Positions 316 to 60,588 of a stretch of 64,000 bases of DNA are shown in pieces. The notes under the pieces are model-generated. The model was not told the DNA's origin. It saw only the letters and a list, made by a program, of their open reading frames with translations, and did not search any database. The translations under genes were made by a program, and so were the position numbers. How positions within the stretch are numbered: position 1 is the first letter of the stretch; each line of letters starts with the position of its first letter. The stretch covers positions 3,744,001 to 3,808,000 of the forward strand of contig CBDIID010000003.1 in NCBI GenBank assembly GCA_965279515.1, read 5' to 3'. The DNA comes from Turneriella sp. (GTDB lineage Bacteria > Spirochaetota > Leptospiria > Turneriellales > Turneriellaceae).

Positions 316-522
316 AACGTGGATTTTACGCTGACGTTTTTTGACGCTTGTGTCATTTATTCAATCTGTAAAGCCGATTTGCGTCAAAAAATGTGGTCGT
401 AGCGGCTCGCGGCGACGCGCGAAAACACACCTCCCGGTGTGCGCGTCGTCCGCGATCTTTGCCGCGGAGACCCGAGCACGCGACCCAACGAAGTGGTCGC
501 GGCGCAGCGCGTAAAATTTGTT
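316..522 (-). repeat. attC-like site 1
   Basis: AACgtggattttacgc...gcgtaaaatttGTT, 207 bp (all attC coordinates run AAC to GTT). Confidence 0.9.
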
Positions 523-541
523 GGCTGAAGTGCCAGGTTCG

Positions 542-1120
542 TTAAGTGTATGGGAACATGAATGAAAGCTCATTCGATTCAATCAATTCTTTGACAATCT
601 CTTCAATCTTAGCATTTTCAAGTTCAGAAAGCTCATTTTGAGGATCTGTTCGGTATAGATTCAAAATAAGGTTCCATATTTCATAAGTAAGAGAGACATA
701 TCTTGCAACTTGGTCATGTGAAATTGCAGCAACTTCCGAATGGGTTTTACCGCCTCTCGTTATGCCGAAATGTCGGCATTGATTATATAGAGCTATCAAT
801 TTGCCAAATTCATTAATCACCCGTTTTTTCTGATTCTTATCAATCGCAGGTATGCGCTGAAAAATGTCACTTAATAGCACATGTAATTCAGGCAAGCTTG
901 ACGCTTCTTTAGAGTAATTCTGACCTAAAAGCTGACTTAGGCTTAAGCCCAAACAGGCAATTACGAAGACATAATATTCGAGTAACGCTGCTTTATCTCT
1001 ATGTCCTTTTCGGAATTCGATCTCTGCAGCCCCCCAGTATTTTATGGCTTGAACTAAAGAAAAAAGTTGAAGATTTGTTTTTCCATGACCAGAGGTCTCT
1101 CTGTGATAAAAGAAGCTCAT
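542..1120 (-). CDS. Hypothetical cassette protein (possibly HEPN-like, YNQCRH)
   Basis: 192 aa ORF filling cassette 520-1168. Confidence 0.7.
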   Translation of the reverse strand: MSFFYHRETSGHGKTNLQLFSLVQAIKYWGAAEIEFRKGHRDKAALLEYYVFVIACLGLSLSQLLGQNYSKEASSLPELHVLLSDIFQRIPAIDKNQKKRVINEFGKLIALYNQCRHFGITRGGKTHSEVAAISHDQVARYVSLTYEIWNLILNLYRTDPQNELSELENAKIEEIVKELIESNELSFMFPYT

Positions 1121-1165
1121 CTCTTTGATATAATCAGAACAACTTAATTCCCTGGCATTTCAGCC

Positions 1166-1377
1166 AACGTGGAAAATACCCGACGTTGATGGTGCGTCAC
1201 ACGGAAAATGCAGGCCTATTTGAAAAGCCGCATACTAAGCACCATCAATGTGCCCGGAGCGCCTCCCTGAGGAGCACCAAACAAACGTCCCGTTTGTGCG
1301 ACGAAGGGATCTTGGGCGCGCAGGGCCGAGCACGCGACCCAACGAAGTGGTCGCGCGCGGAGCGGGTATTTTTTGTT
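1166..1377 (-). repeat. attC-like site 2
   Basis: AACgtggaaaataccc...gggtattttttGTT. Confidence 0.9.
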
Positions 1378-1503
1378 GTCTGAAGTGCCCAATTGGAATA
1401 TAGCCCGCCGAAGACATGGATGTCGGAGGCGCGGGTACTTAAAGGTGTATTTTGAATAGATACTTGACTAACTGACCGAATGGTACTATTTTGAGGCTAA
1501 CTT

Positions 1504-1731
1504 ATGGAAGTCGGCAGGATTACACTCGACCCCGAAATTTGCCACGGAAAACCCTGTGTAAGGGGTATGCGCTGGCCTGTCGAAGTCATATTAGATATGC
1601 TAAGTTCAGGTATGAGCCCAGAGGATATCGTTAAAGATCATTCAGAACTGGAGAAAGACGATATCATAGCCTGCCTCTCTTATGCAGGTTCAGTGGTAAG
1701 TAATTCACGAATGATCCCCGCGGCGTCGTGA
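1504..1731 (+). CDS. DUF433 family antitoxin
   Basis: RITLDPEICHGKPCVRGMRWPV motif; overlaps downstream PIN gene. Confidence 0.9.
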   Translation: MEVGRITLDPEICHGKPCVRGMRWPVEVILDMLSSGMSPEDIVKDHSELEKDDIIACLSYAGSVVSNSRMIPAAS

Positions 1732-2093
1732 TTTTCCTACTCGATGTTCATTTACCCAGGCGCCTCGTCGCCTTCCTCCAAAGCAAAGGACACGAGGCCA
1801 TACATGTGTTAGATGTTTTGAGTGGTGGTCGAACGAAAGATACGGAAATTCGGCAACATGCAGATCATCATCAATATATTGTCATAACCAAAGATAAGGA
1901 TTTCGTAACTAGCCATACATTCCTGAAGTCGCCTAAAAAGCTCATTAAGATAAATCTTGGGAATTTAGGCAATGATGAATTATTAAGTATCTTTGAAAAG
2001 AACTGGAATACCATTTCTGCTCAAGCAAACTCTCCAGAATTCATGATTGAACTTGATAGAGTTGGCGTCGTTTTACACGAGCCGCGAAACTAG
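1728..2093 (+). CDS. DUF5615 PIN-like toxin
   Basis: FLLDVHLP...D.EI...ITKDKDF pattern, paired with DUF433. Confidence 0.88.
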   Translation: MIFLLDVHLPRRLVAFLQSKGHEAIHVLDVLSGGRTKDTEIRQHADHHQYIVITKDKDFVTSHTFLKSPKKLIKINLGNLGNDELLSIFEKNWNTISAQANSPEFMIELDRVGVVLHEPRN

Positions 2094-2159
2094 GAAATAC
2101 CCTTCTACCCAGAGCGCTCGCATGGAGGCGAGCGCCAATTTCTCTTGGGCATTTCAGAC

Positions 2160-2368
2160 AACGCGGAAAATACCCGAATTGCGCCCTCGCGGGTGTAAAG
2201 TGTAAATAATCACGGCTTTATGCGACTTTCGCGGGAGCGCATTTGCCCGTAGCGCCTCGCGAGCCCGCCAATGCAGGCCCAGTGGCCTGCGGGCGTAGCG
2301 ATCTTCGGCGCGTAGGGCAGAGCACGCGACCCAACGTAGTGGTCGCGGCGCAGCGGGTATTTTTTGTT
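2160..2368 (-). repeat. attC-like site 3
   Basis: Family consensus ends. Confidence 0.9.
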
Positions 2369-2559
2369 AGCCGCCGTTACCGGATTCGCGCGGCTGGCGA
2401 GCAACCCGAAGGTCAGCGATATGCTGTAGTTCGATATTATTAGTAACCGAGGAGTTGTCGCCAGGATCAAAGGCGTAAGCAGCGAAATCTGGCTGTACTC
2501 TCTGATAAAAAATCCTCTTTTTCTCCCCTTCGGGCGCGAAGGAGGTAATGGTGGCTAAC
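2366..2559. repeat. ORF-less structured cassette, copy 1
   Basis: 194 bp gttagccgccgttacc...ggtaatggtggctaac; six copies in window. Confidence 0.85.
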
Positions 2560-2772
2560 GCGGAATTTACCCGACGTTGATGGTGCGCCACACAATAAAA
2601 CCGGGCTTATTTGAAAAGCCGCATACTAAGCACCATCAATGTGGTCGGAGCGGCTCGCGGCGGCGCGCAAAAGCAAGCGTCCCGCTTGCGCGCCGTCCGC
2701 GATCTTTGCCGCGCAGACCCGAGCACGCGAGGAGCTACGGCACCGCAGCGAGCGCAGCGGGTAAATTTTGTT
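2557..2772 (-). repeat. attC-like site 4
   Basis: Family consensus ends. Confidence 0.9.
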
Positions 2773-2794
2773 GTCGGCCGTTTGGCATTGGCTG

Positions 2795-4576
2795 TCACCT
2801 TGGGTTAATTAACAGGTGTTGAACCGGCATAAGGCAAAGCCTAAGTGTCAACCACCAAGTAAAGAGACTTGCTGTTGAAAACATCTGCCAATCACTCAGC
2901 AGACCGTGAGCTAACATATTGCGGAGATTACTACCAACCTGCTCGGTGAGGAGACCCTGCATCGTAAATATGATATCTTCATCAAATATGGTGGCTAATT
3001 CAGGTTTATATAGTAATGTGTTGAGGTCATACTCTTTCTGTAGAGAAGTTGATGAAACGGAGGAAGGTATGTTCCCGGCCTGTTCATAAATTTGGCGAAC
3101 GCTATTCTCTAGTTGTGGTATCAGTAAATGTATGCTGGTCATATAATCCCCGTGTAGACCCGCGTTTAGCCCCTTCGCGTAAGCTAAGATTCGCGCCTCG
3201 GGCACAAACGGATTATCGTACAAGAATGGATAAAAATCTCGTTCGGTAAAGCTATGTTCCACATTCGTTTGGTATCTTGCCGGTTCTATGAGTCCCTGCG
3301 TCAGGAGCTGATGCTCCATAATCAAACTCTTAAACATCTCTGCTTTGATCGCTGTTTCCTTTTCTGTGACGTCATCTGTCATGATCGAAGGTTTTTTCGC
3401 GATGACTTTGCCATTTTCATTCAAGACCGCCGAGTTAAATAGGTGAAAGAGAATACTTTGAGACTTTTGGTCTTCAACACGCTTTCTAATGCTACTTACT
3501 TTAGGGATATCGGTTATGAACGCGACGAAAAATAGCACATCCTTTTTCTCTCGCCCACTAATGTGAGAAATTGTTGAGTCTACAAAGCGGGTCAGGTCAA
3601 CGCTAGAGGAGAATTTTCCGAATTCACTCGTCGATCGCTTTTGATACGTAAGGAGCAATGCGTGAACTCTGTCGATATCACTCTTGCGGGCTGGAATTTT
3701 TCTATAAGCGTCTATGGCTCGCAACAGGAAATCAGATGCGGCAAAATAGCTTGGCTTCGCCCGTTTAGTACATTCCTCTGCTTCTAATTCGTACCCCTGA
3801 GCGATGGCCTCGTATGCGTTATTCACCTCTATATCGTTGCCACTTTTCCGAAAGGCTTTAATGGCATGTTCCCAATAAATCCGGGCGGCGTACATATCCT
3901 TGGCGGCTTGGAAGCGTTGAGCGTGCGCCTTTGCCGAATTGGCTAATTGAACCTTGTCAGTTTGGCTCTGGGCGAATAGAATTTCGATAACAGCGGCGGA
4001 TAGAAAAAGCGGATCATTATTCTGATACTTGCTCAGGACGGATTGTGCATATTGAATGATTCTATCGGTGTACGTTAAATCTTTTCCTTTGTATTTTGAC
4101 AATTGCAGGGCACGGCGCAAATTATTGATATACTCCGGCCACTTATTCACATCCTCTATTGATTGGGCCAAGCCAAGATACGCATCTATTGCCTGACCCA
4201 AAAGCTGATGGCGACGACGACCCACCCAAAGCAGATCACACATCCGGGCTACAATAGCCGGGTCCTCGACTTTCTGAGCAATAATCTCAAAATTCGCATA
4301 ATGATTATCATTGAAATCTTCCAAGGCCGCCGTTCTACCATGGACAAACTGAGCAAGCGGAGCAAAGATTTCCGGCTTGTCGCTGTTCATAGAAAGCGAG
4401 CAGGCAGCAGAGAGTAATAACCAAGCCCCTGCCGAAGCGGGATCCTCATTCGATTTATTGCGGAAAAGTGTGCTCAAATCCTGGGCGCTTCTATGGTTTG
4501 TGGTTTTGAGTAGATCATCAATATTTAGTTTTTCAATATCTGCCTCTGAAAATTTCTGTATCTCGCTCAGTTCCAT
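2795..4576 (-). CDS. DUF4209-type protein with C-terminal HEPN-like motif
   Basis: 593 aa from MELSEIQ (the ORF-track start lies inside attC); LLIPQLENSVR and NLRNMLAHGLL (RxxxxH). Confidence 0.8.
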   Translation of the reverse strand: MELSEIQKFSEADIEKLNIDDLLKTTNHRSAQDLSTLFRNKSNEDPASAGAWLLLSAACSLSMNSDKPEIFAPLAQFVHGRTAALEDFNDNHYANFEIIAQKVEDPAIVARMCDLLWVGRRRHQLLGQAIDAYLGLAQSIEDVNKWPEYINNLRRALQLSKYKGKDLTYTDRIIQYAQSVLSKYQNNDPLFLSAAVIEILFAQSQTDKVQLANSAKAHAQRFQAAKDMYAARIYWEHAIKAFRKSGNDIEVNNAYEAIAQGYELEAEECTKRAKPSYFAASDFLLRAIDAYRKIPARKSDIDRVHALLLTYQKRSTSEFGKFSSSVDLTRFVDSTISHISGREKKDVLFFVAFITDIPKVSSIRKRVEDQKSQSILFHLFNSAVLNENGKVIAKKPSIMTDDVTEKETAIKAEMFKSLIMEHQLLTQGLIEPARYQTNVEHSFTERDFYPFLYDNPFVPEARILAYAKGLNAGLHGDYMTSIHLLIPQLENSVRQIYEQAGNIPSSVSSTSLQKEYDLNTLLYKPELATIFDEDIIFTMQGLLTEQVGSNLRNMLAHGLLSDWQMFSTASLFTWWLTLRLCLMPVQHLLINPR

Positions 4577-4600
4577 AATACCTCTTGCCAAATGGCCGAC

Positions 4601-4762
4601 AACGTGGAAAATACCCGAATTGCGCCCTCGCGGGTGTAAAGTGCAAATAAACACGGTTTATGTGACTTTCGCGGGAGCGCATTTGCCCGTAGCGATCTTC
4701 GGCGCGTAGGGCCGAGCACGCGACCCAACGTAGTGGTCGCGGCGCAGCGGGTATTTTTTGTT
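4601..4762 (-). repeat. attC-like site 5 (central hairpin deleted)
   Basis: 162 bp; lacks the segment between two CGTAGCG repeats seen in site 3. Confidence 0.85.
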
Positions 4763-4938
4763 AGCCGCCGTTGCCGGATTCGCGCGGCTGGCGAGCAACC
4801 CGAAGGTCAGCGATATGCTGTAGTTCGATATTATTAGTAACCGAGGAGTTGTCGCCAGGATCAAAGGCGTAAGCAGCAAGAGCCGGCTGTACTCTCTGAC
4901 AACAAATCCTCTTCTTCTCCCCTTCGGGCGCGAAGGAG

Positions 4939-6273
4939 GGTACAATATCAGAACATCGGTAACGAAAAGTCATCACGACATCGGTAACAGTTCTGCCTCA
5001 GGCTTTGCCGTGGTTTCCTCCTGATTTGGTGTAAACAAATAATTGTTCCGATCGATGTAGCCCAATAGCAGGCTACCGAAGTAGACGTCGATGCGCATGT
5101 CGGCGATAAACCGGAGCCCGATCGGGTAGCCGTTAAAAGAATTGCCGATAAATATCCGGTGCTGCTTGTAGTTGGTGTAACCGCGGTCATTTACGATGCG
5201 TACGATGCAATCCTCAGGGTAGGCGGGTAGTACGTCGCCAGTATACGGAATTTCAGATGGTAGGTAGAACTCTGATGGCGTCCTCATGCCCAGGGCTTCA
5301 TGCGGTCGCACATTGTTGAAGTCTTCGCGCCACTGATCAAACGAAATCTGGTGAAGCTTTAGATCACCGCGAATGCGCCCCTGCAGTTCCGTGCGGATGT
5401 CTCTGTGCATACGCTCATGGCCACCATTCTGGGCTGGCTTTCCCGGATCAATGCGGTCCAGAGAAATTCCCAAGGACAGCCACCAGACTGACAATTTTGT
5501 CAGGCCAAAGAGTCCCCACGATGATGCGAAAGGAGTTCCGTTGTCAGAGCGAATAATTTCCGGCAGACCATAGCGTTTGAAGAGTCTGGCAAAGTGTTGT
5601 TTTACATTGGAAATATTGCCCTTTTCCAGTATCTGTATCGACAGGATGTACTTACTGTACTCATCGCGAACTGTCAGAGGTTCGCATTTCTCTGCATGTG
5701 CAGTATACCACCACCCCTTGAAATCAACCGTCCATATGTGATTGGGATGCGTCGCCTTTTCGCGAAGCATCAGCCTCTCTCCGGTTCTGCGGCGCTTCTT
5801 TCCTCTTGGCCTTGTCAGACCAGAGCGCGCCAGAAGGCGATCGACTGTAGGCACTGAAATATCGCCTTTGCGCTCGGGGTAAAGCCTGCAGAAGACCGCA
5901 TAGATCTTCTTGGCTCCCCAGCGAGGCCTGTTATTCTTTATGCGAATAATGTCGCAGATTGTCTCTTCATCAGTGCGGTTCGGATTGCCTCCTGGTTTTC
6001 GTGACAACTCCGCCAATCCAGCTAAGCCTTTTTCCAGAAACCTTGCCTTCCACTTGTACCCTGTCTTGGTGCTGATGCCAAACTCGCGGCACAGCTCTGT
6101 GAAACTCTCTACGCCCTCCAGGGCGCGAAAGACAAAAGATCTTTTCTCTTCCATTTTGGTAACCTCTTTCCACGGCATTTGAGCCCCCTGCCGAAGGCAG
6201 GCAAAAGCTCTTTGCGAAGCAAAGTGTTACCGATGTCTTGATAGAAATGTGTTACCTATGTCGTGATAGTACC
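4939..6273 (-). mobile_element. IS481-like insertion sequence, copy 1 (1335 bp)
   Basis: Ends ggtacaatatcagaacatcggtaac / gttacctatgtcgtgatagtacc; repeated subterminal acatcggtaac motifs; GAG target duplication. Confidence 0.9.
4973..6178 (-). CDS. IS481-family DDE transposase
   Basis: MPWKE N-terminus, HTH, WTVDFKG / IRSDNG / QNGGHERMHR rve core. Confidence 0.92.
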   Translation of the reverse strand: MPWKEVTKMEEKRSFVFRALEGVESFTELCREFGISTKTGYKWKARFLEKGLAGLAELSRKPGGNPNRTDEETICDIIRIKNNRPRWGAKKIYAVFCRLYPERKGDISVPTVDRLLARSGLTRPRGKKRRRTGERLMLREKATHPNHIWTVDFKGWWYTAHAEKCEPLTVRDEYSKYILSIQILEKGNISNVKQHFARLFKRYGLPEIIRSDNGTPFASSWGLFGLTKLSVWWLSLGISLDRIDPGKPAQNGGHERMHRDIRTELQGRIRGDLKLHQISFDQWREDFNNVRPHEALGMRTPSEFYLPSEIPYTGDVLPAYPEDCIVRIVNDRGYTNYKQHRIFIGNSFNGYPIGLRFIADMRIDVYFGSLLLGYIDRNNYLFTPNQEETTAKPEAELLPMS

Positions 6274-6288
6274 GAGGTAATGGTGGCT

Positions 6289-6506
6289 AACGTGGAATTT
6301 ACAAGACGTTGATGGTGCGCCACACAATAATTGCAGGCTTATTTGGAAAGCCGCGTATCAAGCACCATCAATGTGTCGTAGGCGGCTGCGTTGCGCCTGA
6401 CCAAACAAACGCCCCGTTTGTCAGGCGTCAACGCATTTCAGGCCGCCGGAGACCGAGCACGCGAGGAGCTACGGCACCGCAGCGAGCGCAGCTTGTAAAT
6501 TTTGTT
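6289..6506 (-). repeat. attC-like site 6
   Basis: aatttacaag...cttgtaaattt compensatory variant. Confidence 0.9.
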
Positions 6507-6570
6507 GTCTGAAGTAATTGCGCCTGTGAGCCCGGCTAGGAGGGCCGGGCGAACCCTTAGTGCGACTGCT

Positions 6571-6665
6571 CATAACTGGTCATTTTGTCACTTCCAGAAA
6601 CAGGTTTTACACCTGAGAGATTCGGGGTATCTTAGGTCTTAATGGGGAGCAAGTTCTTATATGCT
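6571..6665 (+). repeat. Inner capture repeat, B part (CATAA...)
   Basis: cataactggtcattttgtcac...caggttttacacctgagag...ggagcaagttcttat. Confidence 0.8.
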
Positions 6666-7841
6666 CAAGCCAATTCTCTTGAATAGACTTTCTAATCTTT
6701 CTTCCGCCCATATTTTTAATTCGGGTTCAGTCTCAAAATATCTCTGATACGAATCATGAAATCCGGGAGCCAAATTTTTAATAAATCTCAGAAAATCTTC
6801 TCGAGTCCATTTTTCATGGGGCTTTCGAACAGCCTTGGATATTCGCACTCCATTTAAATCTGCGATGACTCGGGAAATATGCCGGGTAAGTTTGCCGTTA
6901 ACCATACTAACATTTCCAATAAAATCAATGTTTAATGTCGTCACCACACGCCCCTGAGAAAGGAGATATCCACTCAAATAACCAGCAATAGATCTTCGCC
7001 GGCGCCATTCACGACTTTCAAAATCCTGATACTCATCTTGCGCAGTAAGCCGACTGTTCCTGTTTTTGGCTCGTATTTCAAAAATGCGATTACAGCGATT
7101 CTGCCGCAGCATTTTATGAATTTCCGCAGAAGGGCGCTCGTCAGGAAAACCGGAGGCCATCACTGGCAATGCATAAGATCGAGCAAGGAGGAGATAAGAG
7201 ATGTTATCCGCTTCAAAATCCGAAGAATATGTAGCTTGGCCGGAAAAATCATGGTAATTAGCCGAGGTAATTTTTTGGAACTGGGTATGAACGAAGTTAT
7301 GCCAGAAATTCCTAAGCAAGTAGTTTGTTGTCCAATTTTTAAATGCAGCGCGATTGATTGCTGCAACCCCAAGTTTGGCGACAGGTTCGTCTGGAATCAC
7401 TTGGCCATAATAGAGAAAACGAAAAAAGGTTTCAGAAAGAGAATTTTCGATTCTCCGAATTTTATTCCGCAACGGAAAATCAAAAGATCCATAAAAAAAT
7501 CGATCAGCCATCTCGTTTATCCTTAACGTCGGATCGGACTGGATAAGGTTTACAACACAGTATTTATCCCATACATTATTCTCTTGAAAGAAAAGATCAA
7601 TATCCGCGTCAGATTTTGAGAGTAGATTCCTACCGAAGAATTCTGAAATTGAGTTGTTTTCATTCAGAGTAATACTCATCCTCTGCAAAGCCGATAAATA
7701 TGCGTTAACCAGATCCACTGGCCTTAAAATGATATCTTTGCCCAGGGCATCAACTTTGATTTGCTTAACCGTACTTTTAAAATTTATGTCTTGGGCCCAT
7801 CTCTCTAATGCCGCCCGAACCTCGTTAAATGAGCCGTCCAT
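6657..7841 (-). CDS. Hypothetical protein (stop codon lies in the inner repeat)
   Basis: 394 aa ORF with GGAGG upstream. Confidence 0.75.
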   Translation of the reverse strand: MDGSFNEVRAALERWAQDINFKSTVKQIKVDALGKDIILRPVDLVNAYLSALQRMSITLNENNSISEFFGRNLLSKSDADIDLFFQENNVWDKYCVVNLIQSDPTLRINEMADRFFYGSFDFPLRNKIRRIENSLSETFFRFLYYGQVIPDEPVAKLGVAAINRAAFKNWTTNYLLRNFWHNFVHTQFQKITSANYHDFSGQATYSSDFEADNISYLLLARSYALPVMASGFPDERPSAEIHKMLRQNRCNRIFEIRAKNRNSRLTAQDEYQDFESREWRRRRSIAGYLSGYLLSQGRVVTTLNIDFIGNVSMVNGKLTRHISRVIADLNGVRISKAVRKPHEKWTREDFLRFIKNLAPGFHDSYQRYFETEPELKIWAEERLESLFKRIGLSI

Positions 7842-8734: not shown

Positions 8735-8769
8735 GGGTGCCGTACACGACTCTAAAGCCATCGGCTTCT

Positions 8770-53111: not shown

Positions 53112-53168
53112 ATTGTGCACTACAGGTTTGAGTTGACACCATTTTTTCGTAAGGTAATGAAGGAAAAT

Positions 53169-53585
53169 ATGAAATCAGAAGCAACCACGCAAGCAACAGC
53201 AGTTCGCGCCGTTCAGGCCTGGCTGGTAATTTGTAGCGGGATCTTTTTCTGCCACTGCGGTGCTACGGCAGGTCTTAATGCCCGTAACGTCGACCATCCG
53301 GTGATGGTGGGCAATGTTCGCCGCATAGGGGCACGGCCTGCCGGCGAATTGAGAAATAGCCAACCCCTGTCGTTTAAGAACACCCAAAACGGTGACTACA
53401 GCACACTCTCGCCCGGCCGGCTCAGCGGCTACCTGCTGAAGAATCTGGGATACAAAAACAGTGTGGTGCAAATCAACAGCATCGGGTACAAAAATACGGT
53501 CGCGAACTATTTTTTTACCTGGTCGGTACGCGATGAAGCAAGTATCGAGGGTGAAGGCGGTCTGCAATCCGAAGGGGGCAGATAG
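53169..53585 (+). CDS. Putative lipoprotein
   Basis: Hydrophobic segment then Cys; in operon. Confidence 0.6.
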   Translation: MKSEATTQATAVRAVQAWLVICSGIFFCHCGATAGLNARNVDHPVMVGNVRRIGARPAGELRNSQPLSFKNTQNGDYSTLSPGRLSGYLLKNLGYKNSVVQINSIGYKNTVANYFFTWSVRDEASIEGEGGLQSEGGR

Positions 53586-53607
53586 AATGCTCTCGTTGAC
53601 AGGCAAA

Positions 53608-54021
53608 ATGAAATACCTAATGGTCATGTGTATTGTCATCGTGCTAAACTGCGCTGGCAGTCAGGGTGCGGTACGATTTGATCATTTGGATTATCCCGTT
53701 TCTATGAGCGGCTTTTTGTATGGCAAGAATAACGAAATTCTCATGAAAGATCTGCACATGCAAGAAGTCGGAAAATTCTCGCTGACCCGGCGGCAGTGGA
53801 GCATCGGTTACTCACTCATACCGCTGAATGGCAAAGAGGCTTTCGCCGAGGCCATGAACCAGGCTATCATTGCAGCCAAGGGTGACGCGATGGTCAACCT
53901 CGAGATCGAGACGGCTAGTTGCTCATGGAACAGTGTGCCGTACCTTTTTCTGTTGCCCATTTGGCCCGGTTGCGCTGATGTCAAACTGACCGCAGATATT
54001 ATCAGGGAGAAACGACCATGA
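53608..54021 (+). CDS. Putative lipoprotein
   Basis: MKYLMVMCIVIVLNC lipobox; GDAMVNL. Confidence 0.68.
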   Translation: MKYLMVMCIVIVLNCAGSQGAVRFDHLDYPVSMSGFLYGKNNEILMKDLHMQEVGKFSLTRRQWSIGYSLIPLNGKEAFAEAMNQAIIAAKGDAMVNLEIETASCSWNSVPYLFLLPIWPGCADVKLTADIIREKRP

Positions 54022-54431
54022 AATTTGCCAGCACAATTCACCGGACGATAGTGCGCGTTATTTTTTTCTGCCTGCTTTCAGCACTCGCCGCGCAAGTGCC
54101 GCAAGATGTATTGTTGCTTGAAGAAGAACAGGTGAATATTTTTCATTTGCACCGAAATTGTAAATCTCTCGGTGTGATCGAAACGGAAAGGTCATGGCCG
54201 TATAAAAAAACAGAATATGCATCACTCGAAAAATCCAGGATCGCAGAAGAAGCAATTATGCGCGACATGGGCTATCGGGCCGGGGCAAACGCCATGCAGT
54301 TCTTAGGTATGAAATATAGCGTCAGAACGATCGGTCGGAAAATACCGGAATTCAGAATTGACATTAGCACCGATATTCGCTACTGGAAATGTGACCCCAA
54401 AACGCTCGGTATGCTAAAGCGCAGAGAATGA
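54018..54431 (+). CDS. Hypothetical exported protein
   Basis: ATGA overlaps; C..LG ... GAN motif. Confidence 0.62.
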   Translation: MKFASTIHRTIVRVIFFCLLSALAAQVPQDVLLLEEEQVNIFHLHRNCKSLGVIETERSWPYKKTEYASLEKSRIAEEAIMRDMGYRAGANAMQFLGMKYSVRTIGRKIPEFRIDISTDIRYWKCDPKTLGMLKRRE

Positions 54432-55231
54432 TGCTGCGCGTATTTGTCGGCGTCTTTCTGTTCGCATGCCTCGCCGCATGCAATGCGCGCCCGTCGTTCG
54501 ATAAGATGATTGTGCGCCAACCGGGGTCGCGAAAGGCGATTGGGAACAAAGTCTTCGTCGATCAGGCGACCGGCGGCGGCGAAAACGACGCCCTGTCGCC
54601 AACGATCGCCGGCGAAATCAAAATTCCCAACGAAGAATTCACCAAGGCTGTTGAAACGTCGATACGCCAATCCGGTTTTTTCTCAGAGTATGCCGCGCGC
54701 TTTGAAGAAGAGTGGGGGCTGCGGGTGCTCATCGTCAACGTTGAAACGCATATGGACATGCTTGCGGCGACCATGACAGGGCACGTGACGGCGAGATATT
54801 CCGTTTTTTACAAGAATAATCCGGCATACGAATTTGAGTTTCAGACTAAGGGTGCCGCGACCGATTACCTCGGCAGCTATGGCGGTCTGCGCAAAGAGGC
54901 GGTTGAAAAAGCGACGCAGCAAAATATTGCACAATTTTTGCAGCACGTCGTAACCTATGATTTCTCCGATATTACCGAAGCGCCTGTGCAAGAAAAGCTA
55001 CGGCAGAAAAAACAAATTCGCATCGTTGGGCGCATTTTCCAGATTAACGGACGCAAGGTCGATATCATACCCGCCGCTGGGGCGCTCAAAGTGGGAAAAA
55101 TTTACACTATCTTGCGCAAGGACAGGCCAGTCGCAACTGTAAGGGTAGATACCGTCTTCCATACCAAGTGTGCCGGAAAAATCTTGACCGGCGGCGCGGC
55201 GATCGCACCGGATATGTCTGTTGGACAGTGA
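54428..55231 (+). CDS. Putative lipoprotein
   Basis: LAAC lipobox; ATGA overlap. Confidence 0.68.
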   Translation: MMLRVFVGVFLFACLAACNARPSFDKMIVRQPGSRKAIGNKVFVDQATGGGENDALSPTIAGEIKIPNEEFTKAVETSIRQSGFFSEYAARFEEEWGLRVLIVNVETHMDMLAATMTGHVTARYSVFYKNNPAYEFEFQTKGAATDYLGSYGGLRKEAVEKATQQNIAQFLQHVVTYDFSDITEAPVQEKLRQKKQIRIVGRIFQINGRKVDIIPAAGALKVGKIYTILRKDRPVATVRVDTVFHTKCAGKILTGGAAIAPDMSVGQ

Positions 55232-55315
55232 CGGCGTTTCTGCTTTTACTATAACTGTCCGTACCCAAAATTAATTCTGGCTGACGCCCTTACCGATGCG
55301 CCGGTTCATGCATCT

Positions 55316-55597
55316 ATGGCACAAAACATCCACGCATTCACCGCCGCCAACATTTCCGGCAAAGAAACAAGCCTCGCCGATTACAAAGGCAAAGTTGTTT
55401 TGATTGTGAACACCGCCAGCAAATGCGGCTTCACACCGCAGTTCGCGGGTCTCGAATCGCTGTACGAAAAATACAAAGACCGCGGTCTCGTGATTCTTGG
55501 CTTTCCCTGCAACCAATTTGGCGCGCAAGAACCCGGTACATCTGATCAGATTCAGGAATTCTGTCAGCTCAACTACGGGGCAAATATAGCACTTTAA
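55316..55597 (+). pseudogene. Glutathione peroxidase, 3'-truncated by the inner repeat
   Basis: [32 protein letters not shown], then abruptly ANIAL* encoded by the repeat; C-terminal half (WNF motif) absent. Confidence 0.88.
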
Positions 55598-55705
55598 GGC
55601 ACTAACTACCCATAACTTGTCATTTTGTCACCTTCAAAAACAGGCTTTACACCCGAGAGATTCGGGATTCTGTAGGCCTTAGTGGGGAGTAATTTCCTAC
55701 ATATT
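55583..55705 (+). repeat. Inner capture repeat, complete A+B (123 bp)
   Basis: aatatagcactttaaggcactaactacc-cataa-...-ctacatatt. Confidence 0.9.
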
Positions 55706-55775
55706 CAATATCGCTGTTCTCGTCAGAGCGCGCGCACGGATGCGCGCGGATAACCAAGGCGCAATTATTTCAGAC

Positions 55776-55984
55776 AACGTGGATTTTACGCTGACGTTTT
55801 TTGACGCTTGTGTCATTTATTCAATCTGTAAAGCCGATTTGCGTCAAAAAATGTGGTCGTAGCGGCTCGCGGCGACGCGCGAAAACACACCTCCCGGTGT
55901 GCGCGTCGTCCGCGATCTTTGCCGCGGAGACCCGAGCACGCGAGGAGCTACGGCACCGCAGCGGCGCAGCGCGTAAAATTTGTT
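55776..55984 (-). repeat. attC-like site 40
   Basis: Family consensus ends. Confidence 0.9.
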
Positions 55985-56049
55985 GTCTGAAGTAATTGCG
56001 CCTGTGAGCTCGGCCACGGATGGCCGAGCGAATCCTTCGTAGGACTTCT

Positions 56050-56143
56050 CATAACTGGTTGTTTTCCCCCCCTGTCAATCGGGCTTTACAGCCGATAGGT
56101 GAGGTTTAAGTTCCCCTTAGTGAGGAGCAATATCCTATATATT
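56050..56143 (+). repeat. Inner capture repeat, B part
   Basis: cataactggttgtttt...cgggctttacag...ggagcaatatcctatatatt. Confidence 0.8.
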
Positions 56144-56149
56144 AAATGT

Positions 56150-56617
56150 TCAGAGCATCAGCTCCATCGAATAGTTTACCAGAATTTGGCCATTCCGCTC
56201 GATGTGATTTTCGCAAATTTCTCGAAAGCCTTGCTTTGCAAAAAACTTTCGCGCGACAAGCGACGCTTCGACATAGAGTCGCTTTAACCGCATTTCGATT
56301 GCCTGACGTTTCACCTCTTGGTAGAGGGCCGTGCCAACACCCTTGCTTTGAAAATCTGGCCGCACGTATGCGCAGTCAATGTGTCCATCGGCCTCAAGCT
56401 CGATGAAGCCCGCAATCATCGGGCCGACAAGAGCGACATGCGGGCGCTTTTGATTAAGGCGCGTTTGCCATTTTATCATATCGGTTGGAGTTGGCGCCCA
56501 TGCTTCTTTTTGCTTAGCGGTATAAATTCTTTCATCGATGGCATGCACCGCAGTATGAAAAAGATCTGCAATCTCTCCAGCCATTGATTCAGAATAAGGC
56601 GATAATTGCCTGATCAT
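56150..56617 (-). CDS. GNAT acetyltransferase (YafP-like)
   Basis: YT..Q..AWA, GHID..YVRPDFQ.KGVG, EAS..A..FF...GF. Confidence 0.9.
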   Translation of the reverse strand: MIRQLSPYSESMAGEIADLFHTAVHAIDERIYTAKQKEAWAPTPTDMIKWQTRLNQKRPHVALVGPMIAGFIELEADGHIDCAYVRPDFQSKGVGTALYQEVKRQAIEMRLKRLYVEASLVARKFFAKQGFREICENHIERNGQILVNYSMELML

Positions 56618-56624
56618 ACTGAAA

Positions 56625-57227
56625 TCAGCCCGCCTTCAATCCGGCTATAAGCAAGTGAATAACCGCTTCGGCTTCGGCCCTGGCTTTCGTCGAATCTTTA
56701 GCGGTGGCAATAGCTGCGCCCGCTTCCGCAAAAGCTCCGCCCAGAATCCGCGCCGCATCGGGCAAGGGCAGCGGCCGCATGATACCCATTTCTATCCAGC
56801 GGTGCATCAAGCCCGCCACCAGAGGTTCATTGACCGTGGCGTCGGCTTCTTTAAATTTTGCGTGGGCCAAAACGGTAGGTGCCTCACGCAACAGAACCAC
56901 CTGAACAGAGGGGTCCATACAAGCATTCAGGTAAGCGCGAGCTGCTGCCTCGACTTGCGCCCAGCCTGTTTCAGCATCGGCCGCATTCTGAATGGTCGAA
57001 GCCAGTTCGGTGAAAATTTCCGAAACGACGGCGGAGAAAATGTCAATCTTGCCCGCAAAGTGGTGGTAGAGTGCGCCATGAGTCACGCGAGCTGCCCTGC
57101 AGATATCAGCAACGCTGGTTTCTGCATATCCATACTTTGTGAAGACTTGCCGAGCAACACGCAACAAACCTTTCCTTCTAACGGCTTTTTGTTCCACACG
57201 GCTTTTTACGGTTCGTTGCTTAGGCAC
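56625..57227 (-). CDS. TetR/AcrR family regulator
   Basis: F...GY..TSV.DI..AA.VT.GALYHHF..K. Confidence 0.92.
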   Translation of the reverse strand: MPKQRTVKSRVEQKAVRRKGLLRVARQVFTKYGYAETSVADICRAARVTHGALYHHFAGKIDIFSAVVSEIFTELASTIQNAADAETGWAQVEAAARAYLNACMDPSVQVVLLREAPTVLAHAKFKEADATVNEPLVAGLMHRWIEMGIMRPLPLPDAARILGGAFAEAGAAIATAKDSTKARAEAEAVIHLLIAGLKAG

Positions 57228-57244
57228 GAGGAAATCCGATTTTA

Positions 57245-57290
57245 TTTGACATTACGTCGTAATGTTTATACATTATCATATAATGTCAAA
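57245..57290. promoter_or_regulatory. Tandem palindromic operators in the divergent tetR promoter region
   Basis: acattacgtcgtaatgt and acattatcatataatgt, flanked by TTGACA on both strands. Confidence 0.65.
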
Positions 57291-57416
57291 TACAATAACA
57301 ACCGCTGATCTAGGTTTTTATGGGTCACGATTCGCGCCGCACGTCTGTGGCATAGTCTCACAAACGATGTTATTTTTTCTGGGTGGGATGGCAACCATGC
57401 GCGCCCTAAGGTGCAT

Positions 57417-58316
57417 ATGATGAGAAAAGCGAATCTGATCTTCGGTATCGTCTTGTTTCTTGCTTTTCTAGGCACAGGATATTACATGAGCCGCTACTTC
57501 AAGCCCGAGCATCTAACGGATCTGACGATGCGCATGCAAATTCGGGCAAGCCATATCTATCTACTATTCACCGCGCTCTTAAACATCCTGGCATTTACGT
57601 GCGAACTGCGTGGAACCGGCCAGGCAAGAAAATTTTTCGATACGGCTTTTCGTCTATTTCTCGTCGCTGCCGGCACCGTCGCGCTCTGCGCATTCGCTTT
57701 CGAGCATACCGGCGACCTGAAAGAACGCAAGCTGACTTTGTTATCCGTTATATTGGCGTTAGCTTCGGTTGGCTTCATTTTGATCCACGAGATTTTGGCC
57801 GCAAAGCGCCAGCATTTATTTTTGTCTAGCCATGCCTTGACTATGGAAAAACCAATCGCTGTGAACGCTGGAAAAATTGAAGCGCGCCAAAAAAAATCCA
57901 TATACCCGGCTCCTTTTGCAGCAATGATGGCGCTGCGCGAAAAGCGAGTGCTGGGCGATCTTTTTGGCCTGACAAACTTCGGAGTGAACTTGACAACAAT
58001 TAAGCCTGGTGGCATGTCTGCGCTACGGCATGCACATGCAACACAAGATGAGTTTATCTATATTGTTTCGGGAAATCCCGTGCTGGTGACTAATGAAGGT
58101 GAAACGCAACTCAGTCCGGGTATGTGCGCGGGATTTCTTCATGGAAACGGAAACGCACACAACCTAATCAATCGCGAAAACACCGACGCTGTTTATCTCG
58201 AAATAGGCGACCGGAGCGCTGGCGATTCCATCTTATACCCCGATAACGATCTCATGGCAAATTTTGAAGGCCCTGGCAACTGGCGATTTACCCACAAAGA
58301 CGGCTCGCCCTACTAA
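57417..58316 (+). CDS. 4-TM membrane domain fused to a cupin domain
   Basis: TM region, then LGD.FGLTNFGVNL...PGG.SALRHAH..QDEF.Y. Confidence 0.8.
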   Translation: MMRKANLIFGIVLFLAFLGTGYYMSRYFKPEHLTDLTMRMQIRASHIYLLFTALLNILAFTCELRGTGQARKFFDTAFRLFLVAAGTVALCAFAFEHTGDLKERKLTLLSVILALASVGFILIHEILAAKRQHLFLSSHALTMEKPIAVNAGKIEARQKKSIYPAPFAAMMALREKRVLGDLFGLTNFGVNLTTIKPGGMSALRHAHATQDEFIYIVSGNPVLVTNEGETQLSPGMCAGFLHGNGNAHNLINRENTDAVYLEIGDRSAGDSILYPDNDLMANFEGPGNWRFTHKDGSPY

Positions 58317-58334
58317 CCGAACACGTGTCTCAAA

Positions 58335-58409
58335 AATATAGCCCTTTAAGGGCTGACTTTCCATAACTGGTTGTTTTGTCCCCCTGTAAGGAGCAATATT
58401 CGAGATATT
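58335..58409 (+). repeat. Inner capture repeat, A plus internally deleted B
   Basis: aatatagccctttaaggg...cataactggttgtttt...ggagcaatatt. Confidence 0.8.
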
Positions 58410-58475
58410 GAAGCCTGATTACGTTGCCGCGTCGACACGAGGTCGGCGCAGCACAAAGGCGCAATTATTTCAGAC

Positions 58476-58684
58476 AACGTGGATTTTACGCTGACGTTTT
58501 TTGACGCTTGTGTCATTTAATCAATCTGTAAAGCCGATTCGCGTCAAAAAATGTGGTCGTAGCGGCTCGCGGCGACGCGCGAAAACACACCTCCCGGTGT
58601 GCGCGTCGTCCGCGATCTTTGCCGCGAAGACCCGAGCACGCGAGGAGCTACGGCACCGCAGCGGCGCAGCGCGTAAAATTTGTT
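58476..58684 (-). repeat. attC-like site 41
   Basis: Family consensus ends. Confidence 0.9.
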
Positions 58685-58727
58685 GTGCGAAGTCGATGCC
58701 TCATAAGATATTAAAGATCTGTCGGTA

Positions 58728-59156
58728 CTATCGCCCAATGGCGGGTCTTTGCTTTTCTAACGGGCGAACAAAATTGCAATCATACCCTTTTCCTTTGAAG
58801 AAGCTTGAGTTGGTATCAAAATCTCGACTTTTCCATTTCTCGCTTGAATAAGAAAAGCAACCACTTGGAGCTTTTATGTCGTTAAAATTTAGCGTGTAGC
58901 AAATGAGCTGGCCTTCTGAAATAGGGGTTTCAACGCAATAAAAGCCATCTTTGGCTGTATGGTATTGCTTTGTGACCGGTTCGGCGGCCTTAGGGTCTAG
59001 ATTAATCGTTATGCCAATATCCGAACAACCTTTTCCGTTCACGGTAACGTATCCGTACATGCTGCACTTGAATTCATGCGCTTGCGCATGAATTTTCTGA
59101 TTTAGAAAAAATGATGTAGAGGAAAAAAGTAAACAGTAGAAAATATTGCTTTTCAT
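58728..59156 (-). CDS. Hypothetical exported protein
   Basis: AGGAG RBS, signal peptide. Confidence 0.7.
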   Translation of the reverse strand: MKSNIFYCLLFSSTSFFLNQKIHAQAHEFKCSMYGYVTVNGKGCSDIGITINLDPKAAEPVTKQYHTAKDGFYCVETPISEGQLICYTLNFNDIKAPSGCFSYSSEKWKSRDFDTNSSFFKGKGYDCNFVRPLEKQRPAIGR

Positions 59157-59184
59157 AAAAATCTCCTAGGCATCGATTTCGCAC

Positions 59185-59393
59185 AACGTGGATTTTACGC
59201 TGACGTTTTTTGACGCCTGTGTCATTTAATCAAATTGTAAAGCCGATTTGCGTCAAAAAATGTGGTCGTAGCGGCTCGCGGCGACGCGCGAAAACACACC
59301 TCCCGGTGTGCGCGTCGTCCGCGATCTTTGCCGCGGAGACCCGAGCACGCGAGGAGCTACGGCACCGCAGCGGCGCAGCGCGTAAAATTTGTT
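59185..59393 (-). repeat. attC-like site 42
   Basis: Family consensus ends. Confidence 0.9.
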
Positions 59394-59454
59394 GTCTGAA
59401 GTAATTGCGCCTGTGAGCCCGGCTAGTAGGGCCGGGCGAAGAAGAATTAATGCC

Positions 59455-59550
59455 CTTAACCGCTCATTTTGTCATATGAAATCAGGCTTTACACTTGAGG
59501 GATTCGGGATTCTATAGGCCTGATTCGGGAGCAATTTCTTATATAATATT
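59455..59550 (+). repeat. Inner capture repeat, B part
   Basis: cttaaccgctcattttgtca...caggctttacacttgag...ggagcaatttcttatata. Confidence 0.78.
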
Positions 59551-59573
59551 TCTCACCAAAGCGAAGTAACGAT

Positions 59574-60236
59574 ATGAAGCTCAAAATGATTCTATTTGCA
59601 ATGTTGATTCAGAATGGTATGATGTCTGCTCAAGAAGCGAAAAAGCCCGACCAAAAAATTTTGAGGGCCATTGATTCCGGAAACATACAAAAGGTAAATT
59701 CGGCGATAAAAGAAAACCCGTCATATCTCAATCAAGCCATTGAATTCTGGGGCACACCCCTAATTTTTGCAGTGAATAAAGATTTTCTAGCGGCGGTTGA
59801 AAGTTTAGTGAAAAGCGGTGCCGATGTGAACGGACGCGACACAGAAGGACGCACGCCACTAATGTGGTGCCCTATGGATGTGGGGCCGTTCCGTGGCTGT
59901 GGGAGGAACCAGAAGACGCCTCAGAGGAAACGCCAGGAAAGCGAGAGATGTGATACCAAGCTTGCCCGCCTGAAAAAAAACAGAGAGCGTATTCTCATAT
60001 TTCTGCTGAAATCGGGAGTCGATATTGCCGCTGTTGATAACCAAGGACGAACTGCGCTCCACTACGCAGCACGAATGGACGATTTAGACATGGTTAAGTT
60101 TTTGCTGAAAAACGGTGCGAATCCGCACGCACGGGATAAGAGAGGCATGACTCCCGCGAGCGAGACGGCGCCTGAGGGTACCGCGTCGGGCTATGACGCG
60201 GGGAGAATTAAAAAAATCCTGAAGCATAGTCTATAG
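59574..60236 (+). CDS. Ankyrin repeat protein (exported)
   Basis: GTPLIFAV, GADVN.RD.EGRTPL, GRTALHYAA. Confidence 0.92.
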   Translation: MKLKMILFAMLIQNGMMSAQEAKKPDQKILRAIDSGNIQKVNSAIKENPSYLNQAIEFWGTPLIFAVNKDFLAAVESLVKSGADVNGRDTEGRTPLMWCPMDVGPFRGCGRNQKTPQRKRQESERCDTKLARLKKNRERILIFLLKSGVDIAAVDNQGRTALHYAARMDDLDMVKFLLKNGANPHARDKRGMTPASETAPEGTASGYDAGRIKKILKHSL

Positions 60237-60261
60237 AGCGACATATTATGTATGAAAGAAA

Positions 60262-60294
60262 AAAATAGTCCTTTAATGCTGTAACTAGCCACAA
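60262..60294 (+). repeat. Inner capture repeat, A part only (degenerate)
   Basis: aaaatagtcctttaatgctgtaactagccacaa. Confidence 0.65.
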
Positions 60295-60371
60295 TGAGTT
60301 CATCCTGTCGCAGCAGATTTGCTGCGTCGCCAAGGATGGCGACGAAGTACAAAGGCGCAATTATTTCAGAC

Positions 60372-60588
60372 AACGTTGGATTTACCTGACGTCGATGGTG
60401 CGCCGCACAATAAATGCCGTCTTCTTACGAAAGCCGCTCTTGGCGCGCCATCGATGTGCCGCAGGTGGCTGCGTTGCGCCCGCCAATTAAGCTCGACAGA
60501 GCGCGGGCGTCAACGCATTTCAGGCCACCGGAGGCCGAGCACGCGAGGAGCTACGGCACCGCAGCGAGCGCAGCAGGTAAATCTTGTT
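60372..60588 (-). repeat. attC-like site 43
   Basis: Family consensus ends, diverged middle. Confidence 0.88.

What the first reader, a model, noticed from the sequence alone, without database searches (positions are those of the whole stretch)
316..60588. Oversized, multi-branched attC sites built from shuffled hairpin modules with strong covariation
Most sites are 205-218 bp, well beyond the ~57-141 bp of classical attC sites and beyond common detection cut-offs. The outer stem covaries (tacgc/gcgta, taccc/gggta, tacct/aggta, tacac/gtgta, tacaa/ttgta, tacga/tcgta). Inside are three hairpins, each with several sequence-distinct but pairing-conserved alleles. Hairpin 1: ttttgacgc/gcgtcaaaa, gatggtgc/gcaccatc, ttggtgacac/gtgtcaccaa, gatagtgc/gcactatc, gagtgacgc/gcgtcactc. 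Hairpin 2: acacacctcccggtgtg, acaagcgtcccgcttgt, acaaacgtcccgtttgt, gcaggcccagtggcctgc. Hairpin 3: two types. These alleles combine freely: sites 3, 7, 10 and 11 share hairpin 1 but differ in hairpin 2. This implies selection on a complex fold and recombination inside attC sites.
Basis: partly seen in the sequence, partly recalled or inferred. Interest (0 to 1): 0.8.

Follow-up and report, generated by a model that had tools for sequence, protein, structure and literature searches.

The report
Integron-like array with cloverleaf recombination sites
This bacterium stores well over a hundred swappable gene cassettes, each ending in an unusually long cloverleaf-shaped DNA site, and the matching recombinase lacks the protein segment thought essential for integrons, which points to an overlooked second way of building such a gene-capture system.

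Summary
Real, and larger than reported. The window holds 43 sites (40 of 205-218 nt); the genome has 126 in two arrays. They delimit cassettes: core flanks match across the spacer in 113 of 124 cases, duplicated cassettes carry their site, and each array starts at an attI-like site (window 61395-61439, minus strand). Sites fold into a four-way junction with strong covariation. Correction: modules do not combine freely. They are tightly linked, with occasional whole-arm swaps. No canonical IntI was found in this genome or 24 others tested. Instead a tyrosine recombinase lacking the ~41-residue IntI insertion lies divergently beside the attI motif in 10 of 13 relatives; here it is ~0.9 Mb away and shares an upstream box with lexA and recA. 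The stem has no classical extrahelical base but has invariant G-T wobbles. The same skeleton with unrelated arms (161-297 nt) recurs across the class. It works like an integron but fails two defining tests. This scan noted insertion-less integrons on other DNA (213 notes), not this site type. Ten literature searches found neither. Recombination is untested.

The parts
316..61401 (-). Cassette array (window part of genome array 2, which continues ~10 kb to the left); top strand is the minus strand
   Evidence: 43 sites, AAC..GTT on +: 316-522, 1166-1377, 2160-2368, 2557-2772, 4601-4762, 6289-6506, 8127-8337, 8527-8734, 9354-9558, 10180-10390, 11090-11300, 12002-12209, 12398-12605, 13467-13681, 14289-14503, 15187-15401, 15996-16204, 16803-17009, 17783-17992, 18746-18931, 20020-20228, 22310-22516, 26475-26683, 27466-27673, 28707-28914, 29103-29311, 30146-30355, 30948-31162, 31810-32026, 32945-33152, 33831-34037, 35052-35259, 36470-36676, 37450-37660, 37849-38063, 38593-38801, 39927-40141, 40898-41085, 50043-50250, 55776-55984, 58476-58684, 59185-59393, 60372-60588; orientation
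61395..61439 (-). attI-like site at the array head (TTGACA ... CGCAAT.CAG.TAATAGAC then GTT); inferred crossover between 61401 and 61400
   Evidence: Motif occurs exactly twice in the genome, once at the head of each array; similar motif upstream of the recombinase in 10 of 13 relatives; its 4 flanking bases match those before the first site
60589..61400 (-). First cassette; ORF 60612-61367 starts 31 nt after the attI core
316..333 (+). Site 1 anatomy: core AAC, G-T wobble, asymmetric spacer, left half of the outer stem (pairs with 508-522)
   Evidence: G-T next to the core in 349 of 351 sites
334..394 (+). Site 1 anatomy: arm 1 (40, ~61 or ~69 nt in other sites), A-T closing pair and G-T third pair
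   Evidence: G-T in 328 of 351
395..472 (+).
473..507 (+). Site 1 anatomy: arm 3 (two main types) and junction bases
4601..4762 (+). Site with most of arm 2 deleted between two copies of a short repeat; its twin cassette in array 1 has the full site
2369..2556 (.). ORF-less 188-bp cassette; other copies 8338-8526, 12210-12397, 28915-29102, 37661-37848 and 4763-6288 (IS-interrupted); 13 copies in the genome
4939..6273 (-). IS481-like element inserted about 15 bp from a site core; second copy 20959-22293
   Evidence: rve/rve_3 domains; 7 of 8 genome copies lie next to a core, one inside a degenerate site
1504..2093 (+). Reverse-oriented toxin-antitoxin-type cassette (DUF433 + DUF5615/PIN); others 10761-11030 YafQ, 11423-11722 BrnT, 17111-17718 and its exact duplicate 36778-37385, 18058-18724 Gp49 + HTH
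2795..4654 (-). Cassette gene matching candidate defence model PDC-S39; 22638-26045 is a KAP NTPase cassette
41086..50042 (.). 9.0-kb multi-gene cassette with conserved 'wrapper' ends and a ~100-bp direct repeat near both ends; similar 50251-55775 (5.5 kb)
   Evidence: flanks match across the spacer

Best explanation
A sedentary chromosomal, integron-like gene-cassette system of a non-canonical class. Each cassette reads (minus strand) TT-core, gene, long site, G. The + strand of the site folds as single-stranded DNA into a stem carrying the AAC/GTT core, an asymmetric spacer with G-T wobbles, an 8-bp stem and a four-way junction with three arms. A tyrosine recombinase that is related to IntI but lacks the IntI insertion (genome C3:2926093-2927193) excises cassettes and inserts them at the attI-like site, under LexA control, acting in trans in this genome because it has been separated from both arrays. 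Wobbles, spacer asymmetry and possibly the junction stand in for extrahelical bases as strand markers; the arms are self-folding spacers that bring the two stem halves together and are occasionally replaced wholesale by gene conversion or template switching between sites. Shown: cassette structure, orientation, attI, pairing and covariation, genomic linkage to the recombinase in relatives, missing insertion, shared lexA/recA box, arm swaps. Inferred: that this enzyme does the recombination, that the substrate is folded single-stranded + strand, what the enzyme reads, LexA binding.
For: Flank 4-mers match across the spacer in 113 of 124 cases vs 17 of 124 within a site and 13% shuffled; 98 of 103 in relative G007 after removing mis-delimited sites and long spacers (108 of 160 before). 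Duplicated cassettes keep the left site (identity >=0.95 in 11 of 14 pairs vs 2 of 14 >=0.9 for the right site; 8 pairs come from one cassette family). One attI-like motif per array; motif upstream of the recombinase in 10 of 13 relatives and its flank matches the first site in 6 of 6 relatives where that site was located. Within the family, sites were found in 15 of 20 genomes and the recombinase in 13 of 20 plus a split copy in G014; the 5 genomes of four other genera have neither. TIGR02249 cut-off reached in 0 of 20 and 0 of 5 further genomes. Alignment to IntI4 (2a3v) skips ~41 residues; motif spacing 60 vs ~100 in IntI-type proteins; catalytic R, K, H, R, H, Y invariant in 12 orthologs; best fold match is 2a3v, then XerA. 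A 15-mer occurs only four times (<=1 mismatch): before the recombinase, a lexA-like gene, recA and a PA0069 radical SAM gene. + strand more stable in 123 of 126 sites, 3.3 vs 1.1 G-T pairs per site (63 sites). Outer stem halves disagree in only 3 of 346 sites although two random sites share the allele 29% of the time. Cargo is typical of sedentary integrons: reverse-oriented toxin-antitoxin pairs, ORF-less cassettes, defence-like genes.
Against: No recombination was observed or assayed. In this genome and its closest relative by recombinase sequence (G009) the gene has no attI or array beside it. Across the wider class clear sites lay beside the gene in only 4 of 16 loci examined (a fifth by BLAST), none in the rest. 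Cury et al. [quoted passage not shown] 2021 (PMC8138268, passage) call the insertion essential. The SOS-like box was absent in 6 of 16 loci and the lexA-like gene scores under the family cut-off. No sigma-70-type promoter was called at the attI. The top strand also folds with paired cores (median probability 0.97 vs 0.98), so strand choice is inferred from small differences.
Confidence: 0.8

Rival explanations
1. Same cassette system, but the arms and their covariation are largely neutral or serve RNA-level roles: template switching repairs inverted repeats and creates apparent compensatory changes, and the arms act as transcript stabilisers, terminators or processing signals rather than as part of the recombination substrate.
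For: Arm lengths vary freely across the class (arm 1 40-85 nt, arm 2 about 16-160 nt); a site lacking most of arm 2 exists; G-T pairs would also be G-U pairs in RNA; long terminal structures of classical attC are variable (PMC5371416, passage).
Against: Template switching would erase wobbles and bulges, yet G-T pairs stay at fixed places (349 and 328 of 351 sites) and junction bases persist between families with unrelated arms; no Rfam match; the arm-2 deletion occurs once and is not shown to be mobile.
Confidence: 0.35
2. The arrays are ordinary integron arrays (CALINs) left by a canonical IntI that was lost or acts from passing mobile elements; the neighbouring recombinase is an unrelated Xer-like gene.
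For: CALINs are common and recombinases without the insertion near attC were judged not to be IntI (PMC4889954); here the recombinase is ~0.9 Mb from the nearest array.
Against: No canonical IntI in 25 genomes tested; the gene is divergent from a conserved attI and array in several relatives at 39-54% protein identity; XerC and XerD are separate genes; recent duplicates (100% identical cassettes at two places) imply recent activity; no extrahelical G for IntI to read.
Confidence: 0.06
3. The repeats are MITE- or REP-like elements that insert between genes independently of them.
For: Long inverted-repeat elements; Leptospirales are reported rich in candidate MITEs (PMC11602168, passage); 24 partial or isolated hits lie outside the arrays.
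Against: Flanks match across the spacer, not around the element, so there is no target duplication; all 128 array hits share one orientation; site and gene move as a unit; arrays begin at an attI-like half site.
Confidence: 0.03
4. The second IntI-like recombinase of this genome (C3:2781195-2782130) is the cognate enzyme.
For: It also scores weakly with TIGR02249 and lacks the insertion; degenerate sites lie ~24 kb away.
Against: Found in 7 of 13 genomes of the genus, not found in array-bearing G011 and G013, and far from the arrays in G007 and G016; no SOS-like box.
Confidence: 0.04

Closest known systems
Sedentary chromosomal integrons (Vibrio cholerae superintegron: IntIA/IntI4, attIA, VCR sites; PDB 2a3v)
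   Same: Divergent recombinase gene, attI with G/TT core, long array of single-gene cassettes with homogeneous sites, toxin-antitoxin and ORF-less cassettes, SOS box, branched terminal structure (VCRs are described as 'complex branched', PMC5371416), more stable bottom strand.
   Different: Sites 194-226 bp here (161-297 in the class) vs 57-141 bp; no single extrahelical base in the stem; conserved four-way junction; cores predicted to pair with probability ~0.98 whereas long VCRs often misfold; recombinase lacks the ~41-residue insertion and has an extra N-terminal helical region; here the gene is detached from two attI-headed arrays.
Treponema integrons (PMC3607928)
   Same: Chromosomal cassette arrays in spirochetes.
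   Different: Canonical IntI and 63-132-bp attC with a protruding G; that paper states Treponema is the only spirochete clade with integrons.
'Integron-like' tyrosine recombinase subgroup of Smyshlyaev et al. 2021 (PMC8138268) and the four IntI/Xer-intermediate proteins of Cury et al. 2016 (PMC4889954)
   Same: Proteins close to IntI in which the insertion is not conserved.
   Different: In the passages read neither links them to large arrays, an attI or a distinct site type; Cury et al. found fewer than three attC beside each and rejected them.
CALINs
   Same: In this genome the arrays have no adjacent integrase.
   Different: Both arrays keep an attI-like head and an intact, SOS-boxed candidate enzyme is present elsewhere.

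Membership tests
Integron (canonical) | Tyrosine recombinase with the IntI-specific insertion near patch III | tested here: not met
   ~41 residues absent vs IntI4; motif spacing 60 vs ~100; TIGR02249 cut-off reached in 0 of 25 genomes
Integron (canonical) | Intact tyrosine-recombinase catalytic residues | tested here: met
   R225, K250, H316, R319, H342, Y351 invariant in 12 orthologs
Integron (canonical) | attI site with G/TT core next to the recombinase gene at the array head | tested here: met
   10 of 13 relatives; flank match 6 of 6; in this genome attI-like sites head both arrays but are not next to the gene
Integron (canonical) | Array of cassettes, each gene plus one site, cores complementary in the circular form | tested here: met
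   113 of 124; duplicates carry their site
Integron (canonical) | Pc promoter in or near attI | tested here: inconclusive
   TTGAC/TTGCC conserved at the motif start but no sigma-70 consensus called
Integron (canonical) | LexA control of the integrase (common, not strictly defining) | tested here: met
   Same 15-mer before the recombinase, lexA-like gene, recA and PA0069 and nowhere else; binding not tested
attC (classical) | AAC/GTT core in a folded R box | tested here: met
   Invariant columns; cores paired in 126 of 126
attC (classical) | Extrahelical bases (typically G and T, ~6 bp apart) on the R''-L'' arm | tested here: not met
   In the commonest MFE patterns (every fourth of 351 sites) the unpaired bases are a 2-3-nt bulge on the other arm and 2 nt at the junction
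attC (classical) | Length 57-141 bp | tested here: not met
   120 of 126 exceed 200 bp with cores; range from PMC5371416
attC (classical) | Bottom-strand-specific, single-stranded recombination with replicative resolution | not testable with these tools
   Only indirect: + strand more stable in 123 of 126, more G-T pairs
MITE / REP | Element flanked by its own target duplication, independent of neighbouring genes | tested here: not met
   Same-site flank match 17 of 124, near the shuffled 13%
Known structured RNA family | Rfam match at gathering score | tested here: not met
   0 matches in the window

The most novel reading that the evidence does not exclude
A second class of integron in which a recombinase without the IntI insertion recognises a single-stranded DNA cloverleaf, reading the conserved four-way (Holliday-like) junction and G-T wobbles in place of extrahelical bases, with interchangeable arms; active in trans on two arrays, present across a whole spirochete class said to lack integrons, and with 'wrapper' cassettes that may record how new cassettes are made.
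Probability: 0.4. Interest if true: 0.9.

Novelty: new variant of a known kind. Interest (0 to 1): 0.76.

Why it matters
Integron detection and theory rest on two linked features, the IntI insertion and extrahelical bases in 57-141-bp attC sites. Here both are absent, yet a large, apparently active, SOS-boxed cassette system exists (126 sites in this genome, about 170-200 in G007). If the short recombinase works, a class of gene-capture platforms has been missed by design, the insertion is not required for cassette shuffling, and how structure-specific recombination evolved from Xer-like enzymes becomes directly testable with natural sites that differ by whole arms. The arrays are also an unmined store of defence-like and toxin-antitoxin genes, and the wrapper cassettes give a lead on cassette genesis, which the papers read call unknown.

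Tried and rejected
Rfam scan: nothing. My '162-bp sites lacking arm 1' in G007 were a parsing artefact caused by an internal AAC decoy; the true sites are ~215 bp, so no claim is made that arm 1 is dispensable; 18 such rows and 10 unparsed rows of 379 were dropped before the 351-site counts. The arm-3 type-a pairing count (16%) used a wrong register and is disregarded; the base of arm 3 is covered. MAFFT/RNAalifold missed arm 1. The tree of 94 recombinases is a quick, unfinished search: short-spaced proteins and IntI group together against XerC/D (100) and the orthologs form a clade with same-order proteins (96), but sister vs paraphyletic is unresolved. De novo array detection around 79 distant homologs was weak: only two loci (a Bacillota genome with 269-283-nt sites, a spirochete with a 98-nt site) gave usable sites, so breadth outside the class is not shown here. 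No sites found near the gene in 11 of 16 class-level loci. Sequencing runs: no RNA holder listed; contigs of four runs of one study cover the cassettes but their joints are other cassettes between similar sites and cannot show excision, and they may be the source of the assembly. Atlas search of the N-terminal 95 residues gave nothing above 0.78. The genes behind a second SOS-like box in G007 and G016 were not resolved. GC-skew samples of G007 and G016 were too noisy to orient replication. The 200-bp default size cap of IntegronFinder is recalled; it was not found in the passages read.


Full report
Observation. A pattern scan finds 43 sites between 316 and 60588. Forty measure 205-218 nt from AAC to GTT; three are 162, 186 and 188. 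The window is G000:C3:3744001-3808000 of a 4.9-Mb, 99.99% complete genome. An HMM of the sites gives 152 hits: 75 in an array at 93-170 kb, 53 in the array that contains the window, all on one strand, and 24 partial or isolated hits elsewhere; 126 could be delimited fully and 120 of them exceed 200 bp with their 7-bp cores. The organism looks like a Turneriella-type spirochete; this name is my inference from recall and gene content, not from a call.

The sites delimit cassettes. The four bases after the GTT of one site are complementary to the four before the AAC of the next site in 113 of 124 neighbours, but to those of the same site in only 17; shuffling gives 13%. In relative G007 the figure is 98 of 103 after dropping mis-delimited sites and long spacers (108 of 160 before). 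Where the same cassette occurs twice, the site on its left is kept (identity >=0.95 in 11 of 14 pairs) and the one on its right is not (>=0.9 in 2 of 14; background 15%); 8 of these pairs belong to one ORF-less family. So the top strand is the minus strand and the crossover lies in the invariant left AAC(G). The longest ORF is on the minus strand in 71 spacers, on the plus strand in 45, absent in 5 (IS ORFs included). At the head of each array the last AAC is followed not by a site but by a motif found only at these two places in the genome: an attI-like half site, window 61395-61439. Cargo includes reverse-oriented toxin-antitoxin pairs, a PDC-S39 candidate defence gene, a KAP NTPase, many unknowns and 13 ORF-less cassettes; gene-less cassettes are known from Vibrio arrays (10.1101/2023.11.21.568050, abstract only).

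Fold and covariation. With DNA parameters the cores pair in 126 of 126 MFE structures on both strands; the + strand is more stable in 123 of 126 (mean -62.3 vs -58.6 kcal/mol); z is -5.2 to -11.4 for 8 sites. The first multiloop has three branches in 110 sites and two in 16: a four-way junction. On 42 of the 43 window sites, 24 of 36 consensus pairs show double changes, 97.3% of cells pair (81.2% shuffled, 0 of 500 as high; 32-52% when slid). Relatedness can inflate this control, so I also counted distinct alleles in 351 sites from six genomes: the 11 basal pairs of arm 1 pair in 97% of cells over 27 recurrent alleles vs 59% when halves are re-dealt (max 71%), with two or more Watson-Crick types at 9 of 11 positions. 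G-T pairs are fixed beside the core (349 of 351) and at the third pair of arm 1 (328 of 351); the + strand carries 3.3 G-T pairs per site, the minus strand 1.1 (63 sites). There is no lone extrahelical base on the R''-side arm; unpaired bases are a 2-3-nt bulge on the other arm and two bases at the junction. Classical sites have extrahelical G and T about 6 bp apart (PMC7439510, passages) and measure 57-141 bp, with branched ends in VCRs (PMC5371416, passages).

Shuffling is real but not free. In 125 sites of this genome, modules are strongly linked (normalised mutual information 0.46-0.77 vs 0.06-0.21 shuffled; 28 arm1 x arm2 combinations vs 54.5 if free; no four-gamete violation for arm1 x arm2 here, 30 in the pooled 350 sites; 6 for arm2 x arm3 with at least two sites each). 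The clearest exchange is in the ORF-less family: 4 of 13 copies carry a different arm-2 interior (25 differences) while their spacers differ by as little as 4 of 170 bases and arm 1 by 2, and the incoming arm is the commonest one in other cassettes; this may be a single event plus a second one at arm 3. The two halves of the outer stem disagree in only 3 of 346 sites although random sites share the allele 29% of the time. So exchanges look like patch replacement (gene conversion or template switching; inference) filtered by pairing.

The recombinase. The genome has four tyrosine recombinases, none over the TIGR02249 cut-off; two group with XerC/D. The 366-aa protein at C3:2926093-2927193 has orthologs in 12 of 19 family relatives, plus a split copy in G014. 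In G007, G016, G013, G011, G015, G014 and G010 the sites start just upstream of the gene, divergently; the attI motif lies there in 10 of 13 relatives (two of the three misses have under 400 bp of upstream sequence; G009 has none in 10 kb), and its flank matches the first site in 6 of 6 where that site was located. Five genomes of four other genera have neither gene nor sites (54-100% complete). No genome of 20 + 5 tested has a canonical IntI. Against IntI4 the alignment jumps 271-295 in the query vs 181-246, about 41 residues missing; the catalytic set is invariant; a model (mean pLDDT 79) best matches 2a3v, then XerA, and shows an extra N-terminal helical region. A 15-mer of GTTC-N7-GTTC form occurs with at most one mismatch at four places only: before this gene, a lexA-like gene (93 bits, cut-off 111), recA and a PA0069 radical SAM gene; a similar box lies near the gene in 10 of 16 loci. 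Integrase genes of canonical integrons are LexA-controlled (PMC8946536, passages). The second IntI-like protein is missing from array-bearing G011 and G013 and far from the arrays in G007 and G016.

Breadth. Homologs at E <= 1e-62 occur in 120 of 161 genomes of the class (the threshold may admit non-orthologs). Sites with the same skeleton but unrelated arms were seen in other families of the order (238-244 nt, G031, G032), in another order (287-297 nt beside the gene in G116, G048, G151, G166; 6-71 matches in five genomes) and in G041 (161-164 nt, clustered far from the gene). In 11 of 16 class-level loci no site was found near the gene. The stem, wobble and junction bases persist while arm length changes several-fold.

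Mechanism. Most likely the enzyme binds the folded + strand at the core stem, cuts at the AAC, and exchanges with attI or another site, as in integrons; wobbles, spacer asymmetry and perhaps the junction give strand selectivity; locally folding arms keep the long site in a recombinogenic form (core pairing probability median 0.98 in 42 sites), whereas long VCRs often misfold (PMC5371416). All of this paragraph is inference.

Comparison with print. Cury et al. 2016 (PMC4889954; section 18 and passages) define IntI by the extra domain and conclude that recombinases lacking it near attC are not IntI. Smyshlyaev et al. 2021 (PMC8138268; passages) note an integron-like subgroup where the insertion is not fully conserved but call it essential. 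Wu et al. 2013 (PMC3607928; first quarter and passages) name Treponema as the only spirochete clade with integrons. Passages of PMC9024848, PMC8352920, PMC2426708, PMC3108266, PMC3789691, PMC11602168 and bioRxiv 2022.02.06.479319 did not describe this system; the last treats the domain as defining. Ten searches listed no paper on insertion-less integrons or on such sites; the library lacks most subscription journals, and I did not open supplements (Cury's Figure S1 and Smyshlyaev's Appendix S3 could bear on prior notice). The scan's own notes hold 213 findings on insertion-less integron-like arrays in other genomes (AI notes, not support), and none matched this genome, protein, DNA or the word searches for branched oversize sites.

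Verdict. Works like a sedentary integron; not a member by the IntI-insertion and extrahelical-base tests. New variant of a known kind, interest 0.76.

Noticed in passing
window 41086-50042, 50251-55775, 18932-20019, 55985-58475; about 20 cassettes genome-wide: 'Wrapper' cassettes share both ends (19 of 120 have both, 5 one), which extend the outer stem by ~18 bp and add two hairpins in the circular form; the multi-gene ones carry a direct repeat near both ends (109 bp at 96% in the 5.5-kb one) around housekeeping-type genes (ClpP, ECF sigma, MarR, DsbD, RidA) that are only ~70% like chromosomal paralogs. Possible trace of how cassettes capture DNA.
   Followed up: partly
window 4939-6273, 20959-22293 and six more copies in C3: An IS481-like element sits about 15 bp from a site core, in one orientation, in 7 of 8 copies; the eighth is inside a degenerate site; an IS end also marks the tail of array 2. 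Looks like a site-targeting IS.
   Followed up: partly
G000:C3 whole contig: Cumulative GC skew has its minimum near 2.75 Mb and maximum near 0.3 Mb, which would put the bottom strand of both large arrays on the lagging-strand template, against the trend for large arrays in PMC5371416; but dnaA lies at 4.28 Mb and gene-strand bias is weak, so the origin is uncertain.
   Followed up: partly
G000:C3:2927215, 4316038, 2600652, 4249241: Candidate LexA box of GTTC-N7-GTTC form; it differs from the TTTG-N5-CAAA palindrome used for Leptospira interrogans in PMC3789691.
   Followed up: partly
L030:11436-13280 (G007): Four tandem, slightly diverged ORF-less 274-bp cassettes directly behind attI, with many more in the array; a second ORF-less family has an internal decoy core inside arm 1.
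   Followed up: partly
L099 (Bacillota genome): 269-283-nt branched sites upstream of a distant short-spaced recombinase.
   Followed up: no
L013:5086-5200 (G000:C3:2929086-2929200): A decayed site lies ~1.9 kb upstream of the recombinase gene, perhaps a remnant of the original array.
   Followed up: no
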